The translations under genes were made by a program, and so were the position numbers. This document shows, in pieces, positions 2,314 to 11,164 of a stretch of DNA of 11,164 bases. Every line of letters starts with the position of its first letter. Positions within the stretch are counted from its first letter, which is position 1. Source of the DNA: a virus; UHGV virus genome UHGV-0778032. One strand, 5' to 3'. A model generated the notes under the pieces. That model was not told where the DNA came from and ran no database searches. It saw only the letters and a list, made by a program, of their open reading frames with translations.

Positions 2314-2976
2314 TTAGCTCAACCTTTGAGCAATCCTGTATGACGTGCTCAGAGGCATTCTGAGAACATCTGCAATGTACTTAATGGGTTTTCCTTGCCT
2401 GTATAGTTTTATGAAGCCGTCGAGCGTCTCAGGTGGGTAAATGGTGGGTCTTCCTCTTAAGCCTCCTCTGTTAATGATGGTTAACGGTAGCAATGTATCA
2501 GCACAGCAAATCATCTGTGTAATTTCATGCCTGCGTGGTTCTTTTTTAAAAACAACGACTGCACTAGGAAACGGTGAACGAATAGTAAGCCCGTTATGCC
2601 CTGCTGGTGGAAGGTATTTAACTGCACGATGAAGAATACGGATTTCATGGCAAAGCGGGTTTGTGAAGATGTGCTTAAGCCAGTATATGGTTTGGGGTCG
2701 GTACGGTATCAGGAATACCGCTAAATCTGCTTCAGACGCTTTTACGAGGAATGTTTTAGTGTCGCTGTATGGTGGGTTACAGAATACCCGCTCACCATCC
2801 CATGACTGATTGCGAATATCATCGGTGAACCGTGGTAGCAATGCGTCGTGCTTAGTTGCAGCACCATCTAGCGTAAGACCAAATTCACGGTGTAAGTTCT
2901 TAAATAACAAAAATGGAGTTCTCCAGCAATCAGAACCCCCATGATGTTTCCCGATTAAAATATGCTCAATTGACAT
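2314..2976 (-). CDS. Phage-type Dam-family DNA N6-adenine methyltransferase with C-terminal resolvase-like HTH (220 aa)
   Basis: Motifs WRTP, CNPPYS (NPPY catalytic motif of amino-methyltransferases) and FPSAVVVF in the order expected for phage Dam methyltransferases. C-terminal ~50 aa (GRPTIYPPETLDGFIKLYRQGKPIKYIADVLRMPLSTSYRIAQRL) resembles the HTH of small serine recombinases. ATG at 2976-2974; no obvious SD. Confidence 0.7.
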   Translation of the reverse strand: MSIEHILIGKHHGGSDCWRTPFLLFKNLHREFGLTLDGAATKHDALLPRFTDDIRNQSWDGERVFCNPPYSDTKTFLVKASEADLAVFLIPYRPQTIYWLKHIFTNPLCHEIRILHRAVKYLPPAGHNGLTIRSPFPSAVVVFKKEPRRHEITQMICCADTLLPLTIINRGGLRGRPTIYPPETLDGFIKLYRQGKPIKYIADVLRMPLSTSYRIAQRLS

Positions 2977-3223
2977 AAGAAATAAAAATTTTTATTGCAA
3001 TCACTCTTGACAAGGTTTACTCTCTTTTAAGAGATACTTAACAGGTTTTCTAAACGGATATCCTTTCTGGGATATCTATCTTTTATCTTAAAAGTTTTTA
3101 CAGATACTTTAAAGATATCTGTATTAAATCTGTACAGTAACTTTTCAGAGTCTGAAAATTTTTATAAAAAATGACTAGCCCTCTTTGAATCTCATCTTCC
3201 CCGAATCTTCGAAAATATCTGAC

Positions 3224-3259
3224 TAGTTGATTCGGTTAGTTGGGCTTGTACCAACCCCT
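3224..3259. repeat. Composite site: X (3224-3241, TAGTTGATTCGGTTAGTT) overlapping Y (3238-3259, AGTTGGGCTTGTACCAACCCCT) by AGTT
   Basis: X has a perfect 18-bp inverted partner at 3730-3747; Y has a 21/22 inverted partner at 4031-4052. Both found by direct reverse-complement comparison. Confidence 0.85.
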
Positions 3260-3716
3260 AATCTACCTCATGATGTCTGTAGCTGCTAAGTACCCGTCAC
3301 ACCAGCTATGTGACCCCCTTTGCAGAATTTTAAAATATCTATTGACTTTCTTCATAGTATCTGTTAACTCCACCTCAAGAAACCTTCATCACACTTCAAA
3401 GCATCTATCAAGAAGATTTAACCTATCAATAGCTGTAACATTTTATAGCTCTGTGAAGTCCTGCCCAGTTTTCTCTGTAACAGCTACAAACTTCTGTGAC
3501 CTTATATGTCAATGACTTACAAGACATGCTCTCAAGGTGCTGTATAGCCACTTATCTTCAAATACACAAAACCCTTATAAATCAGTACTGATACATATAC
3601 AGTGTGTTTTTAACATAATAGCTGTTTTACGCACTAATCGTGTTCTACATGAAATCTGTATAGATATTAAGGTGTCTGTAAGTGATTTTTTAAGAGGAAC
3701 TACGAAGGAACTATGA

Positions 3717-3747
3717 GGTTGATTCCTAGAACTAACCGAATCAACTA
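3717..3747. repeat. Inverted copy of X (3730-3747) inside a palindromic site GGTTGATTC-N12-GAATCAACT
   Basis: AACTAACCGAATCAACTA is the exact reverse complement of 3224-3241. The flanking sequence makes an imperfect palindrome, with a direct repeat GGAACTA x2 just upstream (3696-3714). Confidence 0.85.
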
Positions 3748-4030
3748 TAACCATCACCTCCTAACTTTCACATAGCTGATTGTTATCTCTTGCAACTGTA
3801 ACGTATGGTGACCAACTGCATGAATAGCGTTATATACTCCTGTATATAGCACTTTTCTAGGAGTCGAGAGAGGGACGACTAACACCCTGCATAGTTCCCT
3901 GAAAAGAGACTTTACAGATTCTTTATATATTTCAATAAGTTAGGATAAAAAGGGGCTATGTCGATACTGCGTAGAATCTGTGTAAAACTGCTTAGATATT
4001 TGAAGAAATACCGTTAAATTGCATAGTCAT

Positions 4031-4052
4031 AGGGGTTGGAACAAGCCCAACT
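4031..4052. repeat. Inverted copy of Y (21/22 identity)
   Basis: AGGGGTTGGAACAAGCCCAACT equals the reverse complement of 3238-3259 with one mismatch; 158 bp upstream of the recombinase start. Confidence 0.85.
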
Positions 4053-4209
4053 ACACCTGTTTATGTCCTGTTATTAACAGGTTTCTTAGAAAACCGAATA
4101 GACTTCATTCAAGGGTCATTGTATTGTAGCTATTCGGCATTGTAGCATTAGCCATAACGTTTATAAGTTCATCTTTAAATGATAATCAATTGCATGGGAG
4201 TTTATCACC

Positions 4210-5730
4210 GTGAGAACCGTAATAACATACTTGAGATTCTCATCAGCCACACAAGGTGCTGAAGGTGCTGATTCAACCAGACGACAAAATGAGCTATTCA
4301 AACAGTGGTTAAGGAAGAATAGCGATGCTCAAGTAGTAGCGTCTTTCAGTGATGAAGGTCTATCCGGTTACAAAGGTAAGCACTTGTCAGGGCAATTTGG
4401 GGATATGCTTTCCCGTATTGAAAGTGGGGAGTTTTCAAAAGGTACAATTCTGTTAGTCGAAGCTATCGACCGTATAGGCCGCCTTGAACATCTTGAAACA
4501 GAAGCCTTGATGAATCGCATTATTGCTCATGGTATCGAGATTCACACTCTACAGGATGGGCTAATCTACACAAGGGATGCTCTATCCGATGATTTAGGAA
4601 TCTCAATCATTCAGCGGGTTAAAAGCTACCTAGCGCATCAGGAGAGTAAGCAGAAGTCTTTCCGTGTTAGCGAGAAGTGGAAACAACGTGCAAAACTTGC
4701 CCTTGCTGGTGAACAGCGTTTAACAAAGATGGTTCCCGGATGGATTGACCCTGAGACTTTTAAACTCAATGAACACGCTGAAACTGTAAGACTGATTTTC
4801 AAGCTGCTGCTAGATGGTGAAAGTCTGCATAACATTGCACGTCACCTACAGGCTAATAACATTAGTTCATTCTCACGACGTAAAGATGCTAACGGGTTTA
4901 GTGTTCATTCTGTGCGCACTATCTTAAGGTCAGAAACAACGATAGGTACACTACCAGCATCACAGCGCAATGACCGCCCCGCTATACCGAACTACTACGA
5001 AGCCGCTATAGATGTATCAACGTTCAATAAAGCTCAAGAGATTCTTGGTAAGAACCGTATAGGCCGTACACCTGCAAGTGATAATCCATTAACGATTAAC
5101 ATCTTCAAAGGTCTGTTTAGGTGTCAGTGCGGGGCTAGTGTTCACCCTACAGGGACTAAGAATAAGTATCAGGGCGTTTATCGGTGCAATAACCATCTTG
5201 ATGGTCGCTGTGATGTTCCTCCGTTGAAGCGTAAACCGTTTGATAAGTGGATGATTGATAATTTTCTGGGGATGATTGACGTGGGGAATGATGGAGAAGC
5301 AGAGGGGAAGATTTCATCTCTACAGCATGAGGTTGAAATTGTCACAACCAGAATCAAGAAAGCTACCGCCCTACTTCTTGAGATGGATGATATTGATGAA
5401 CTAAAAATTCAGCTTAAGGAACTGAACCAGAAGCGCACAGAACTACAGACCACGATTGATAACATGAGGCGTAAGGCTTCACTCACTGATAAGGAACTAC
5501 CCCAGCTTAAAGATATTGACCTGACAACTAAAGCGGGTCGTGTCGAGTGTCAATTAATTTTGTCCAAACATCTAAAAGGGCTTACATTGGGTAAGGGTTC
5601 AGTAACTATAACGCTACAGAACGACACTGAAATCACCATACCTACAAACCCGTTACCGCTAAATGATGGGTCACCAATCTTTGAAATTGCTGATAAAGAG
5701 CTACTGGATATTGACGCTTATCAACTGTAA
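4210..5730 (+). CDS. Large serine recombinase (506 aa)
   Basis: N-terminal YLRFSSATQ fits the catalytic-serine motif of the resolvase/invertase catalytic domain. Followed by a long recombinase-type middle region, a Cys-rich zinc-ribbon-like segment (CQCG...YRCNNHLDGRC) and a C-terminal coiled-coil-like region. GTG start at 4210 with GGGAG 9 nt upstream. Confidence 0.8.
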   Translation: MRTVITYLRFSSATQGAEGADSTRRQNELFKQWLRKNSDAQVVASFSDEGLSGYKGKHLSGQFGDMLSRIESGEFSKGTILLVEAIDRIGRLEHLETEALMNRIIAHGIEIHTLQDGLIYTRDALSDDLGISIIQRVKSYLAHQESKQKSFRVSEKWKQRAKLALAGEQRLTKMVPGWIDPETFKLNEHAETVRLIFKLLLDGESLHNIARHLQANNISSFSRRKDANGFSVHSVRTILRSETTIGTLPASQRNDRPAIPNYYEAAIDVSTFNKAQEILGKNRIGRTPASDNPLTINIFKGLFRCQCGASVHPTGTKNKYQGVYRCNNHLDGRCDVPPLKRKPFDKWMIDNFLGMIDVGNDGEAEGKISSLQHEVEIVTTRIKKATALLLEMDDIDELKIQLKELNQKRTELQTTIDNMRRKASLTDKELPQLKDIDLTTKAGRVECQLILSKHLKGLTLGKGSVTITLQNDTEITIPTNPLPLNDGSPIFEIADKELLDIDAYQL

Positions 5731-6609: not shown

Positions 6610-6682
6610 TCTGTTAAGCGTGAGCTACGTGAAAAATAATTTTTGGTGGGTATATCTGTTCAGGAGATTTCACGTAGCACAC
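6610..6682 (-). repeat. Copy A of conserved 73-bp dyad element (GCTACGTGAAA ... TTTCACGTAGC arms)
   Basis: 71/73 identical to 8845-8917 in the same orientation. Lies 14 nt after the tape-measure stop and about 75 nt upstream of the next gene start. Confidence 0.9.
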
Positions 6683-8844: not shown

Positions 8845-8917
8845 TCTGTTAAGCGTGAGCTACGTAAAAAATAATTTTTGGTGGGTATATCTGTTCAGAA
8901 GATTTCACGTAGCACAC
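8845..8917 (-). repeat. Copy B of conserved 73-bp dyad element, immediately upstream of the tape-measure gene
   Basis: 71/73 identical to 6610-6682. Its gene-proximal end runs directly into the SD of the tape-measure gene. Confidence 0.9.
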
Positions 8918-10983: not shown

Positions 10984-11164
10984 AGTGCATTCTACCGTTA
11001 CTTAGATGGTTATTTTGAATTGTCTTTATTAATCAATGATTTAACTCGTAATGCTGAACTCTTCACACACCAGCAATTAAAATCCCGCTTCTCCAGATGG
11101 AAGAATGCACCAGCAGATACTGGTGATTTTGAGATTATCCATACCTTCGATTATGCCTCAGAAG
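10984..11164 (+). pseudogene. Start-less, promoter-less inverted partial copy of the left-edge gene
   Basis: Open + frame from the TAA at 10981-10983 to the window end. The last 42 codons are identical to codons 26-68 of the left-edge gene, but the 18 codons upstream differ and hold no ATG/GTG or SD. May be silent, or expressed only after rearrangement. Confidence 0.4.
11038..11164. repeat. Right copy of perfect 127-bp terminal inverted repeat (reverse complement of 1..127)
   Basis: Same comparison as the left copy; in frame within an open + strand frame that runs off the right edge. Confidence 0.95.

What the first reader, a model, noticed from the sequence alone, without database searches (positions are those of the whole stretch)
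3036..3125. Cluster of GATATC-containing palindromes upstream of the methyltransferase gene
GGATATCC (3055-3062), GGGATATCTATC (3070-3081) and AGATATCT (3111-3118) lie within about 90 bp in an AT-rich region. The related motif AAAATATCT recurs at 2009-2017, 3212-3220 and 3332-3340. These could be operator sites or target sites of a DNA-modifying enzyme. Weak signal, since the motifs are short and the region is AT-rich.
Basis: seen in the sequence. Interest (0 to 1): 0.2.

Follow-up and report, generated by a model that had tools for sequence, protein, structure and literature searches.

The report
Phage-derived promoter-leader hairpin in satellite-like island
The clustered GATATC sites are real, and they form a short stem-loop element copied from the control region of Felix O1-type phages, sitting in an 11-kb E. 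coli mobile island that looks like an undescribed parasite (satellite) of those phages.

Summary
The true positions are GGATATCC 3056-3063, GGGATATCTATC 3069-3080 and AGATATCT 3113-3120. Three GATATC within 63 nt occurs in only 2 of 5000 dinucleotide shuffles.

The sites are not independent. The first two are the arms of a 9-pair stem-loop (3056-3077, -11.4 kcal/mol, z -4.5) followed by a U-rich tail. This lies downstream of TTGCAA/TTGACA -35-type boxes.

The block 2990-3094 is homologous (80-86%) to a single-copy element in 253 Felix O1-like phages. There it is the promoter (P41) and leader of the gene-41 operon, and its core is identical in every sampled phage of three genera. The third GATATC lies in a diverged copy of the phage's Shine-Dalgarno (SD) repeat, next to a mosaic boundary at 3120.

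The window is the excised form of an ~11.25-kb serine-integrase island:
- It matches 565 of 5426 complete E. coli genomes.
- It carries Felix-like tail genes.
- It has no GATC at all, like the phages.
- Next to the cluster it holds a homologue of the phage's terminal-repeat boundary.

The methyltransferase-target and methyltransferase-operator readings are not supported. Most likely this is a helper-type promoter and leader hairpin in a candidate satellite. Function is inferred, not shown.

The parts
2995..3023 (+). P41-like promoter boxes: TTGCAA (2995-3000), a second -35 box TTGACA (3007-3012), and candidate -10 hexamers TTTACT (3016-3021, N15) or TACTCT (3018-3023, N17). They face rightward, away from the methyltransferase gene.
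   Evidence: Alignments A1 and A4: CTTGACAA is invariant between the islands and the Felix, Moogle and Susp phages. The Felix O1 paper defines P41 as TTGACA(N15)TATAGG in the 40-41 divergent intergenic region. The strict consensus scan did not call it.
3024..3055 (+). 5' leader segment CTTTTAAGAGATACTTAACAGGTTTTCTAAAC. It includes a TTAACAG motif (3038-3044).
   Evidence: It aligns to the phage leader CTTAAAAG..CTAAAAAGGCTATTTAAAC. It is close to Pectobacterium phage Wc4-1 CTTAACAGATTTTCTATTCAGATATC. TTAACAG occurs 11 times against 2.3 expected.
3056..3077 (+). Stem-loop made by the first two GATATC copies: arm GGATATCCT (3056-3064), loop TTCT (3065-3068), arm GGGATATCT (3069-3077).
   Evidence: RNA fold gives -11.4 kcal/mol, z -4.46, 0 of 200 shuffles as stable. 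It is called terminator-like. The phage version AGATATCT/TTCT/GGATATCT gives -8.4 kcal/mol. All 8 pairs are kept in all sequences, with AU to GU and UG to CG changes.
3078..3094 (+). Conserved U-rich tail ATCTTTTATCTTAAAAG.
   Evidence: It is nearly invariant between island and phages. It counted as the T-run in the terminator scan.
3095..3123 (+). Tandem TTTACAGATAC / TTTAAAGATATC forming a second, imperfect hairpin or palindrome TACAGATACTTTAAAGATATCTGTA. It holds the third GATATC (3114-3119).
   Evidence: It aligns to the phage SD-bearing repeat TTTTAAGAGGTC / TTAAAAGAGGT. The fold gives -8.0 kcal/mol and z -1.5, which is not significant. It is present only in the islands.
3120..3121 (.). 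Mosaic boundary between the methyltransferase/promoter/GATATC module and the island's conserved noncoding arm.
   Evidence: Of the 507 E. coli genomes matching 2960-3345, 107 cover at least 80% of the query. Many of the partial matches start at query 161, which is window 3120. The L056 and L057 variants carry other DNA to the left of this point.
3130..3339 (+). Homologue of the Felix-like phage region that spans the inner boundary of the 613-bp direct terminal repeat. The boundary equivalent is about 3287/3288. It contains the AAAATATCT copies at 3212 and 3332.
   Evidence: 67-80% identity to noncoding DNA of Felix-like phages. In vB_EcoM-Ro111lw, record positions 1-613 equal the last 613 nt. 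Window 3318-3339 matches positions 584-563 and window 3130-3177 matches 726-678. The 613-bp DTR was reported from PhageTerm analysis in PMC6454146.
2314..2976 (-). Dam-family (PF05869) methyltransferase with a C-terminal HTH_7-like tail. It is the leftward neighbour of the cluster.
   Evidence: Pfam E 4e-14; PHROG DNA methyltransferase; PADLOC orphan MTase.
4109..4121 (.). attP crossover region of the island. It is joined in this window, so the element is in its excised or tandem form.
   Evidence: Window 4088-4121 matches the attR side and 4109 onward matches the attL side of integrated copies lying between tonB and yciI.
4210..5730 (+). Large serine recombinase (integrase).
   Evidence: Pfam Resolvase + Recombinase + Zn_ribbon_recom. 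Relatives at 84-92% identity occur in E. coli, Shigella and Citrobacter chromosomes.

Best explanation
The GATATC cluster is part of a roughly 100-nt promoter-plus-leader module (2990-3094, with a diverged extension to 3123). The island shares this module with Felix O1-like (Ounavirinae) phages. In the phages it is the P41 promoter and 5' leader of the gene-41 transcription unit, which holds a DUF5681 gene, a vWFA/Ro-like gene and the tRNA array and, according to the Felix O1 paper, runs on through the morphogenesis genes to gene 79.

The first two GATATC copies are the two arms of one stem-loop in the rightward transcript, followed by a U-rich tract. The third copy is a by-product of a diverged copy of the phage's SD repeat, and it abuts a recombination boundary.

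Shown: the homology, its strong conservation, the hairpin's stability, its position after -35-type boxes, and the island context. The context comprises excised serine-integrase element, Felix-like tail genes, no GATC, and a homologue of the phage terminal-repeat boundary immediately downstream.

Inferred: the module is transcribed rightward by host RNA polymerase. The hairpin acts at the RNA level as a leader attenuator/terminator or a stabilising 5' stem-loop. As a result, transcription into the island's noncoding arm (and, in the circular form, on toward attP and the integrase gene) follows the same control as the helper phage's middle operon. This would let a satellite-like island respond to infection.
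For: Homology and conservation
- Window 3037-3094 (to 3115 in Mooglevirus) is 80-86% identical to a single-copy unannotated element in 253 Ounavirinae records.
- In the phages it lies in the divergent intergenic region, 25-35 nt upstream of the gp41 homologue, which is followed by the vWFA gene and the tRNAs.
- The core is identical across all sampled phages of Felixounavirus, Mooglevirus and Suspvirus, while the flanks vary.
- The Felix O1 paper places P41 (TTGACA-N15-TATAGG) in the 40-41 intergenic region and reports ORFs 41 and 42 as maximal at 25 min.

Structure
- Island hairpin: -11.4 kcal/mol, z -4.5. The phage leader folds into a longer structure of -24 kcal/mol, z -4.3 to -4.6.
- On alignment A2, 93% of cells pair, against at most 60% when partners are slid.
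- Differences are AU/GU, UG/CG and GC/GU changes plus one compensatory UA/CG pair. G-U pairs work only for the plus-strand RNA.
- The plus strand scores as terminator-like.

Independence from the methyltransferase.

Island context: excised form, attP; 565 genomes; Felix-like tail genes; no GATC; DTR-boundary homologue.
Against: - There are no transcript data.
- The -10 hexamers are weak, and the strict sigma-70 scan called no plus-strand promoter here or in the phage.
- Covariation is minimal because the sequences barely vary: 1 compensatory pair, and shuffles are not exceeded (253 of 500).
- The hairpin is not kept in the Citrobacter island (AGAGTTTTC...GGGGTTCT, fold z 0.2) or in Erwinia phiEa21-4 and Pectobacterium Wc4-1, although neighbouring motifs are. 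It is therefore dispensable in some lineages.
- The stem has only 3 G-C pairs and an interrupted U-tract, so it is a weak terminator.
- GGATATCC and AGATATCT are each perfect 8-bp palindromes in the island and the phage respectively, which a DNA-binding protein model explains equally well.
- The island has no ORF downstream of the leader.
Confidence: 0.5

Rival explanations
1. DNA operator. The palindromes GGATATCC, GATATC and AGATATCT are binding sites for a dimeric regulator, either phage-encoded or island-encoded. The regulator would sit just downstream of the divergent promoters and switch them, as a roadblock or an activator. The island would then sense or titrate a helper protein at the DNA level.
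For: - The first site is a perfect 8-bp palindrome in both lineages despite two substitutions (phage AGATATCT, island GGATATCC).
- A third perfect 8-bp palindrome, AGATATCT, is present at 3113-3120.
- RATATCT, TTAACAG and ATCTGTA-type short motifs are enriched in the noncoding arm and in phage noncoding DNA.
- The core is identical in all sampled phages, beyond what pairing alone needs: the loop and tail are also invariant.
Against: - Centre-to-centre spacing of the two sites differs between phage (12 bp) and island (14 bp).
- The differences preserve RNA pairing, including G-U pairs.
- No candidate regulator was identified.
- The methyltransferase HTH is conserved where GATATC is absent.
- The Citrobacter island and the distant phages lack the sites.
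Confidence: 0.25
2. Part of a replication-origin or packaging nucleoprotein site. The short ATATCT, TTAACAG and ACAGAT repeats from 3030 to 3340 would be binding sites for the island's O-like initiator or for helper packaging proteins. They lie next to the homologue of the terminal-repeat boundary.
For: - The island encodes an O-like/DnaD-like initiator.
- Region 3130-3339 is homologous to the phage DTR boundary.
- In the phages, CTTAACA repeats form phased arrays (11, 20 or 31 nt spacing) in that region.
- AT-rich palindromes flank the cluster.
Against: - In the phages the GATATC element is 7-9 kb away from the terminal region and sits in a promoter-leader position.
- It is absent from many island variants that keep the arm.
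- There is no array-like repetition of GATATC itself.
Confidence: 0.1
3. Target sites of the adjacent methyltransferase, or an operator for its C-terminal HTH.
For: The cluster lies upstream of a Dam-family methyltransferase gene that carries a weak HTH_7 match (E 0.004, below the Pfam cut-off). GATATC is a known methylation site type (EcoRV; from general knowledge).
Against: - The element occurs in phages and in a Citrobacter island without that gene.
- The L057 allele has a nearly identical recognition helix but no GATATC in 3.2 kb.
- PF05869 enzymes are GATC methylases by family annotation, and the window has no GATC.
- The other four GATATC sites in the window are scattered inside genes.
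Confidence: 0.03
4. Chance clustering in AT-rich DNA.
For: GATATC is compositionally common in this kind of DNA: observed counts roughly equal the maximal-order Markov expectation.
Against: The clustering is reached in 2 of 5000 shuffles. The same arrangement is conserved in 253 phages and in more than 100 E. coli genomes.
Confidence: 0.02

Closest known systems
Felix O1 P41 promoter / gene 40-41 divergent intergenic region (Whichard et al. 2010, PMC3185647)
   Same: Homologous sequence: the -35 boxes and the hairpin core TAAAC-RGATATC..GGATATCTATCTYTTATCTTAAAAG. The order is also the same: promoter, then leader hairpin, then U-rich tail.
   Different: In the island there is no gp41 (DUF5681) gene or SD after it. 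Nineteen nt of leader are missing. The stem is one C-G pair stronger and the loop region 2 nt longer. It faces a noncoding arm instead of an operon. The hairpin itself was not described in that paper.
Satellite P4 late promoters (Psid, PLL) that mimic helper P2 late promoters and respond to Ogr/Delta (general knowledge, not tested here)
   Same: Works like it: a parasite element carries a helper-type promoter region with a conserved dyad, so it is expressed on the helper's schedule.
   Different: The helper family is different. There is no sequence relation, no known activator here, and the dyad lies downstream of the promoter rather than at -55.
PLE of Vibrio cholerae and PICMI (satellites of virulent phages; PMC7145576, PMC10803314)
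   Same: The island resembles PLE in being a 10-20 kb chromosomal island with a large serine recombinase, its own replication initiator and a large noncoding region, and in being tied to a lytic myovirus. Units longer than one genome were seen in an assembly, which recalls concatemer packaging in PICMI.
   Different: No protein homology was tested or expected. This island carries tail genes (tape measure, baseplate/Dit-like). No induction or transduction data exist.
Rho-independent terminators / leader attenuators
   Same: A stem-loop of 9 pairs, a 4-nt loop and a T-rich tail, placed between a promoter and downstream sequence.
   Different: The stem is AT-rich (3 G-C pairs) and the U-tract is interrupted. 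In the phages the tail is partly paired in a larger structure. Termination was not measured.
Autoregulatory operators of HTH-bearing methyltransferases and C-protein boxes of restriction-modification systems (general knowledge)
   Same: Palindromes upstream of a methyltransferase gene that has an HTH-like tail.
   Different: Co-occurrence fails: the element exists without the gene, and the gene exists without the element.

Membership tests
Ounavirinae P41 promoter-leader element | Sequence homology to the conserved core downstream of TTGACA boxes | tested here: met
   80-86% identity over 58-79 nt to 253 phage records. Alignments A1, A2 and A4.
Ounavirinae P41 promoter-leader element | Followed by the gp41 (DUF5681) gene, the vWFA gene and the tRNA array | tested here: not met
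   In the window the element is followed by about 1 kb of noncoding DNA. The phage context is shown.
Ounavirinae P41 promoter-leader element | Hairpin formed by two GATATC-containing arms | tested here: met
   All 8 pairs are kept in phage and E. coli island sequences.
Intrinsic (rho-independent) terminator | Stem of at least 5 pairs with G-C pairs, loop of 3-8, T-run directly after | tested here: met
   The pattern scan calls 3056-3077 plus ATCTTTTATC: 9 pairs, 3 G-C, loop of 4.
Intrinsic (rho-independent) terminator | Actual transcript 3' ends at the T-run | not testable with these tools
   Needs Term-seq or in vitro transcription.
Sigma-70 promoter | -35 and -10 hexamers with 16-18 nt spacing, at least 9 of 12 matches | tested here: not met
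   The strict scan found no plus-strand site at 2990-3040, nor in the phage. Only TTGCAA/TTGACA boxes with weak -10 hexamers are present. The published P41 has a 15-nt spacer.
Operator of the adjacent HTH-methyltransferase | Operator co-occurs and co-varies with the HTH | tested here: not met
   The L057 allele has a nearly identical recognition helix but no GATATC upstream. The element is present without the methyltransferase gene in L197 and in the phages.
Target of a Dam-family (GATC) methyltransferase | Sites contain the family's recognition sequence | tested here: not met
   GATATC does not contain GATC, and the window has 0 GATC against 48 expected. The enzyme's true specificity is not testable here.
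Known RNA families (Rfam 15) and tRNA-like elements | Covariance-model or ARAGORN match | tested here: not met
   No match in the window region or in the phage leader.
Phage satellite (PLE/PICI-like island) | Integrase and att sites; excised form detectable | tested here: met
   Serine recombinase and attP core at 4109-4121. Integrated copies lie between tonB and yciI or between yecE and yecN. The window and L049 carry the joined junction, and L049 is longer than one unit.
Phage satellite (PLE/PICI-like island) | Own replication initiator but no capsid or terminase genes | tested here: met
   An O-like initiator is present. Only tape-measure and baseplate-like structural genes are found, and the other ORFs have no family match.
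Phage satellite (PLE/PICI-like island) | Sequence ties to a specific helper (regulatory or packaging mimicry) | tested here: met
   P41 leader homology. DTR-boundary homology. Baseplate gene about 80% identical at the nucleotide level to Felix-like phages. Shared total lack of GATC and 39% GC.
Phage satellite (PLE/PICI-like island) | Induction, packaging and transfer by the helper | not testable with these tools
   Needs infection and transduction experiments.

The most novel reading that the evidence does not exclude
The window is the excised genome of an undescribed family of satellites of virulent Felix O1-like phages, with matches in about 10% of complete E. coli genomes (most of them partial or mosaic copies). 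Its noncoding right arm would be a patchwork of helper cis-elements. The GATATC hairpin module would be a copy of the helper's P41 promoter-leader that senses infection, or titrates a helper regulator. The adjacent block would mimic the helper's terminal-repeat cleavage site so that the island is packaged. Total loss of GATC would let the island share the phage's immunity to whatever acts on GATC in infected cells.
Probability: 0.4. Interest if true: 0.8.

Novelty: new variant of a known kind. Interest (0 to 1): 0.55.

Why it matters
How Felix O1-type phages time their transcription is still unknown, as the 2010 genome paper states. A roughly 75-nt leader whose core is identical in the sampled phages of three genera, and that has been captured by a chromosomal island, is a concrete handle on that question.

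If the island is a satellite, it would extend the PLE/PICMI type of parasitism of virulent phages to E. coli, Shigella and Citrobacter, and to a phage group used for typing, biocontrol and therapy. Island carriage, seen in about 1 in 10 E. coli genomes, could then affect susceptibility to those phages.

The two adjacent helper-derived cis-elements (promoter-leader and terminal-repeat boundary) and the shared GATC-free composition make this directly testable.

Tried and rejected
- **attP at 3120.** Many E. coli matches break at 3120, in the middle of AGATATCT, so I suspected the attachment site was there. Alignment to integrated copies put the crossover at 4109-4121 instead. Position 3120 is a mosaic boundary.
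- **tRNA or known RNA.** The roughly 78-nt phage matches suggested a tRNA-like gene. ARAGORN and Rfam found nothing.
- **Large structured RNA from the long-range inverted repeats.** The pairs 3237-3260/4030-4053 and 3224-3241/3730-3747 cross each other, so they cannot nest. They co-occur or are co-absent among variants. They remain unexplained.
- **Genome-wide pattern scan.** GATATC-N(4-10)-GATATCTATCT was too loose.
- **Plasmid collection.** No match.
- **Viral contigs with the recombinase.** No relatives. With the methyltransferase, only distant ones.
- **Terminal repeat in BPS15Q2.** That record has no terminal duplication. Ro111lw does.
- **Covariation test.** It is compatible with the structure but not significant, because the sequences are nearly invariant.
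- **73-nt tail-gene repeat in phage loci.** No convincing match in the partial phage loci held.
- **Literature.** Searches for a Felix O1 or Ounavirinae satellite found nothing in the held library.

Full report
**1. The observation**

Reading the sequence confirms all the motifs, though most reported coordinates are 1-3 nt off.
- GGATATCC is at 3056-3063.
- GGGATATCTATC is at 3069-3080.
- AGATATCT is at 3113-3120.
- AAAATATCT is at 2012-2020, 3212-3220 and 3332-3340.

The cluster lies in a 1.2-kb stretch with no convincing ORF (2977-4209). On one side is a minus-strand Dam-family methyltransferase gene (2314-2976; Pfam PF05869, E 4e-14, with a weak C-terminal HTH_7 match). On the other is a plus-strand large serine recombinase gene (4210-5730).

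The statistics are as follows.
- GATATC occurs 7 times against 2.4 expected; 4 of 200 shuffles reach 7.
- Three copies within 63 nt are reached in only 2 of 5000 dinucleotide-preserving shuffles of the window, and in 1 of 5000 shuffles of the noncoding region alone.
- Against a maximal-order Markov model the total count is ordinary (7 against 5.2).
- GATATC is generally over-represented relative to dinucleotide shuffles in several related phage loci.

The meaningful signal is therefore the clustering, not the count.

**2. What the cluster is part of**

A BLAST of the noncoding region against phage genomes gave an unexpected result. Window 3037-3094 (to 3115 in Mooglevirus) is 80-86% identical to a single-copy, unannotated stretch in 253 Ounavirinae records. 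These cover Felixounavirus, Mooglevirus and Suspvirus, with Escherichia, Salmonella, Shigella and Citrobacter hosts.

In those phages the stretch lies in a divergent intergenic region, 25-35 nt upstream of a small conserved gene. That gene is Felix O1 gp41, a DUF5681 protein. It is followed by a vWFA/"RNA-binding" gene and the tRNA array.

The Felix O1 genome paper (PMC3185647) describes this 40-41 region as one of two divergent transcription start regions. It places promoter P41 there (TTGACA-N15-TATAGG) and reports ORFs 41 and 42 as maximally expressed at 25 min. It also states that temporal control in this phage is not understood.

Alignment of island and phage sequences (A1, A2, A4) shows three things.
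- The -35 boxes are shared. The island has TTGCAA at 2995-3000 and TTGACA at 3007-3012, and CTTGACAA is invariant.
- The island leader is 19 nt shorter.
- The core TAAAC-RGATATC(C)TTTCT(G)GGATATCTATCTYTTATCTTAAAAG is almost invariant.

Among 31 phage copies from three genera the core is identical while the flanks differ.

**3. Anatomy of the three sites**

The first two GATATC copies are the two arms of one stem-loop: GGATATCCT / TTCT / GGGATATCT at 3056-3077.
- As RNA it folds at -11.4 kcal/mol, z -4.5, with 0 of 200 shuffles as stable.
- The pattern scan flags it as terminator-like because of the following ATCTTTTATC.
- The phage version, AGATATCT / TTCT / GGATATCT, folds at -8.4 kcal/mol. 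It is embedded in a longer leader structure of -24 kcal/mol, z -4.3 to -4.6.

On the alignment, 93% of cells of that structure pair, against at most 60% when partners are slid by one to three columns. All 8 hairpin pairs hold in every sequence. The differences are AU/GU, UG/CG and GC/GU changes plus one compensatory UA/CG pair. G-U pairs only work for the plus-strand RNA, which gives modest support for a transcribed, rightward element. Covariation is too sparse to be statistically decisive (253 of 500 shuffles reach the observed score).

The third GATATC (3114-3119) is in TTTACAGATAC/TTTAAAGATATC. This aligns to the phage's SD-bearing tandem TTTTAAGAGGTC/TTAAAAGAGGT. It forms only a weak second hairpin (-8.0 kcal/mol, z -1.5). 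It ends exactly at a mosaic boundary at 3120, where many of the partial matches among the 507 E. coli genomes begin.

**4. What the window is**

The recombinase protein is encoded on a 12,790-bp contig (GCA_001292545.1) whose two ends overlap by 1.49 kb. This gives an 11,255-bp unit, and the window is one such unit.
- Parts of the same element match 565 of 5426 complete E. coli chromosomes. Only 3 of those matches cover at least 80% of the window.
- Integration sites include tonB/yciI and yecE/yecN.
- Alignment to integrated copies puts the attP crossover at 4109-4121, just upstream of the recombinase gene. The window therefore carries the joined junction, meaning the excised or tandem form.

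The gene content is as follows.
- A lambda-O-like/DnaD-like initiator.
- The methyltransferase.
- The integrase.
- A tape-measure protein about 30% identical to that of Felix-like phages.
- A baseplate/Dit-like gene about 80% identical to theirs at the nucleotide level.
- Several ORFs with no family match.
- No capsid or terminase gene.

GC is about 39%, like Felix O1.

Most strikingly, the window has no GATC at all (48 expected). The same is true of five of the six Felix-like phage loci of 5-14 kb that were checked; the sixth, L008, has 6 against 41 expected. Integrated islands have 0-1 GATC in about 11.5 kb, while their E. coli or Citrobacter flanks have 24-51 in 7-10 kb.

**5. The neighbour of the cluster**

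Window 3130-3339 is homologous to a second noncoding region of the phages. In vB_EcoM-Ro111lw a 613-bp direct terminal repeat was determined with PhageTerm (PMC6454146). In that record, positions 1-613 equal the last 613 nt.
- Window 3318-3339 matches positions 584-563, inside the repeat.
- Window 3130-3177 matches positions 726-678, just outside it.

The island therefore carries a homologue of the inner boundary of the phage terminal repeat. The boundary equivalent is about window 3287/3288, roughly 170 nt downstream of the GATATC module. The two AAAATATCT copies at 3212 and 3332 lie in this block, and both sites are largely conserved in the phages.

In the phages the two blocks are 7-9 kb apart and in opposite relative orientation. 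The island arrangement is therefore a mosaic, not a simple deletion. The rest of the arm (3340-4108) is conserved among island variants but has no phage match.

**6.

The link to the methyltransferase fails on co-occurrence.
- The element exists in phages with no such gene nearby.
- A Citrobacter amalonaticus island (integrase 89% identical) has no methyltransferase, yet it has the twin-TTGACA block directly before the arm.
- The E. coli variants L056 and L057 have a methyltransferase 61% identical overall, with an almost identical HTH recognition helix (LSTSYRIAQRL against LSTTYRIVQRL). Their upstream DNA is different, and L057 has no GATATC in 3.2 kb.
- GATATC does not contain GATC, the family's usual target, and GATC is absent from the element entirely.

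A generic operator function for some other protein remains possible. The first site is a perfect 8-bp palindrome in both lineages despite two substitutions, and the loop and tail are as invariant as the stem.

**7. Limits of conservation**

The double-GATATC hairpin is not universal.
- The Citrobacter island has AGAGTTTTC...GGGGTTCT there, with no significant fold (z 0.2).
- Erwinia phiEa21-4 keeps only TATCTATCT...TTATCTCTTAAAAGCCTTT.
- Pectobacterium Wc4-1 keeps CTTAACAGATTTTCTATTCAGATATC.

The promoter boxes and the short TTAACAG and TTATCT motifs are more widely kept than the hairpin.

**8. Mechanism**

Shown:
- The cluster belongs to a phage-homologous promoter-leader block.
- Two of the sites form a stable hairpin followed by a U-rich tail.
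- The block sits in an excised integrative island with several specific ties to Felix O1-like phages.

Inferred (about 0.5):
- Host RNA polymerase starts near 3025-3035 from the P41-like boxes.
- The hairpin acts in the transcript as an attenuator/terminator or a 5' stabiliser.
- The island uses this helper-type module so that transcription into its arm follows the helper's middle-gene control. The arm contains the terminal-repeat-boundary mimic. In the circular form, transcription would continue toward attP and the integrase gene.

Precedents recalled from general knowledge and not tested here are the P4 late promoters that mimic P2, and the role of transcription at the T7 concatemer junction.

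The main rival (about 0.25) is that the palindromes are DNA operators for a phage or island regulator. The mutant design given under next steps separates the two models.

**9. Comparison with what is known, and novelty**

The element is a member by homology of the Ounavirinae P41 leader region. That region is published as a promoter region, but as far as I could find its hairpin has not been described. The island copy lacks the downstream genes that define the phage context.

The island resembles PLE and PICMI in lifestyle features. No paper in the held library describes a satellite of Felix O1-like phages. This is absence of evidence within a limited library.

I rate the finding as a new variant of a known kind. 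Overall interest is 0.55. Most of that comes from the context (candidate satellite, helper cis-element mimicry, GATC-free composition) rather than from the GATATC motif itself.

Noticed in passing
whole window; also L005, L006, L020-L022, L001, L051, L197: GATC is completely absent from the 11,164-nt window (48 expected by Markov model; 37.9 +/- 6.2 by shuffles). It is also absent from five of six Felix-like phage loci of 5-14 kb; L008 has 6 against 41 expected. Integrated islands have 0-1 GATC, while their chromosomal flanks have 24-51. The island nevertheless encodes a Dam-family methyltransferase.
   Followed up: partly
window 3130-3339 (boundary equivalent about 3287/3288); L199 563-726: This block is homologous to the inner boundary of the 613-bp direct terminal repeat of Felix-like phage vB_EcoM-Ro111lw. 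It is a candidate packaging or cleavage-site mimic.
   Followed up: partly
window 4088-4121 and 4210-5730: The attP crossover is at 4109-4121, upstream of a large serine integrase. The window is the excised or tandem form of an ~11.25-kb island with matches in 565 of 5426 complete E. coli genomes. Integration sites include tonB/yciI and yecE/yecN.
   Followed up: yes
window 3120-4108: About 1 kb of ORF-free DNA is conserved among the island variants examined. Beyond 3340 it has no phage match, and its function is unknown. It is bounded on the plus strand by terminator-like hairpins at 3056-3077 and 4067-4081. The exact 11-mer TTAACAGGTTT occurs at 3038 and again at 4074.
   Followed up: partly
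window 3237-3260 / 4030-4053 and 3224-3241 / 3730-3747: There are long-range inverted repeats of 24 nt (96% complementary) and 18 nt (100%). The 24-nt pair is present at both places (window, L056) or at neither (L057, L053). Variant L052, and the Citrobacter island, carry a small resolvase-type recombinase gene in place of 3328-3742. This may be an invertible or exchangeable cassette.
   Followed up: no
window 6610-6682 and 8845-8917 (minus strand is the gene sense): A 73-nt direct repeat (97% identical) lies upstream of both tail genes (Dit-like and tape measure). It contains GTGTGCTAC...CTGAACAGATATAC...CTTAACAG. A similar GTGTGCTAC...TCTGAACAG lies upstream of the gp41 homologue in Erwinia phage phiEa21-4. 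It is a candidate phage-type promoter.
   Followed up: partly
window-wide; L005 11588-11712, L006 2338-2506, L199 432-600: TTAACAG occurs 11 times in the window against 2.3 expected (0 of 200 shuffles reach 11). In Felix-like phages, CTTAACA(G) forms same-strand arrays spaced 11, 20 or 31 nt inside and next to the terminal repeat.
   Followed up: partly
L056 643-1500, L057 822-1500 (E. coli island variants): In these variants the GATATC module is replaced by 680-860 nt of other noncoding DNA. It contains a GGTA-rich piece homologous to a different Felix-like intergenic region (phage tootiki 10145-10226, annotated repeat_region). In L056 it ends in a canonical terminator right before the boundary equivalent to 3120.
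   Followed up: partly
window 11038-11164: The last 127 nt are an inverted copy of sequence near the window start (100% identical to the reverse strand of L049 10989-11115). This is most likely an assembly artefact at the contig end.
   Followed up: partly
L003 2984-3072 and homologues in Moogle/Susp phages: The phage P41 leader folds into a roughly 75-nt extended stem-loop (-24 kcal/mol, z about -4.4). Its outer stem changes CCUCU/AGAGG to CUUCU/AGAAG between genera. It has no Rfam family and lies about 0.5 kb upstream of a Ro-like/vWFA 'RNA-binding' gene.
   Followed up: partly
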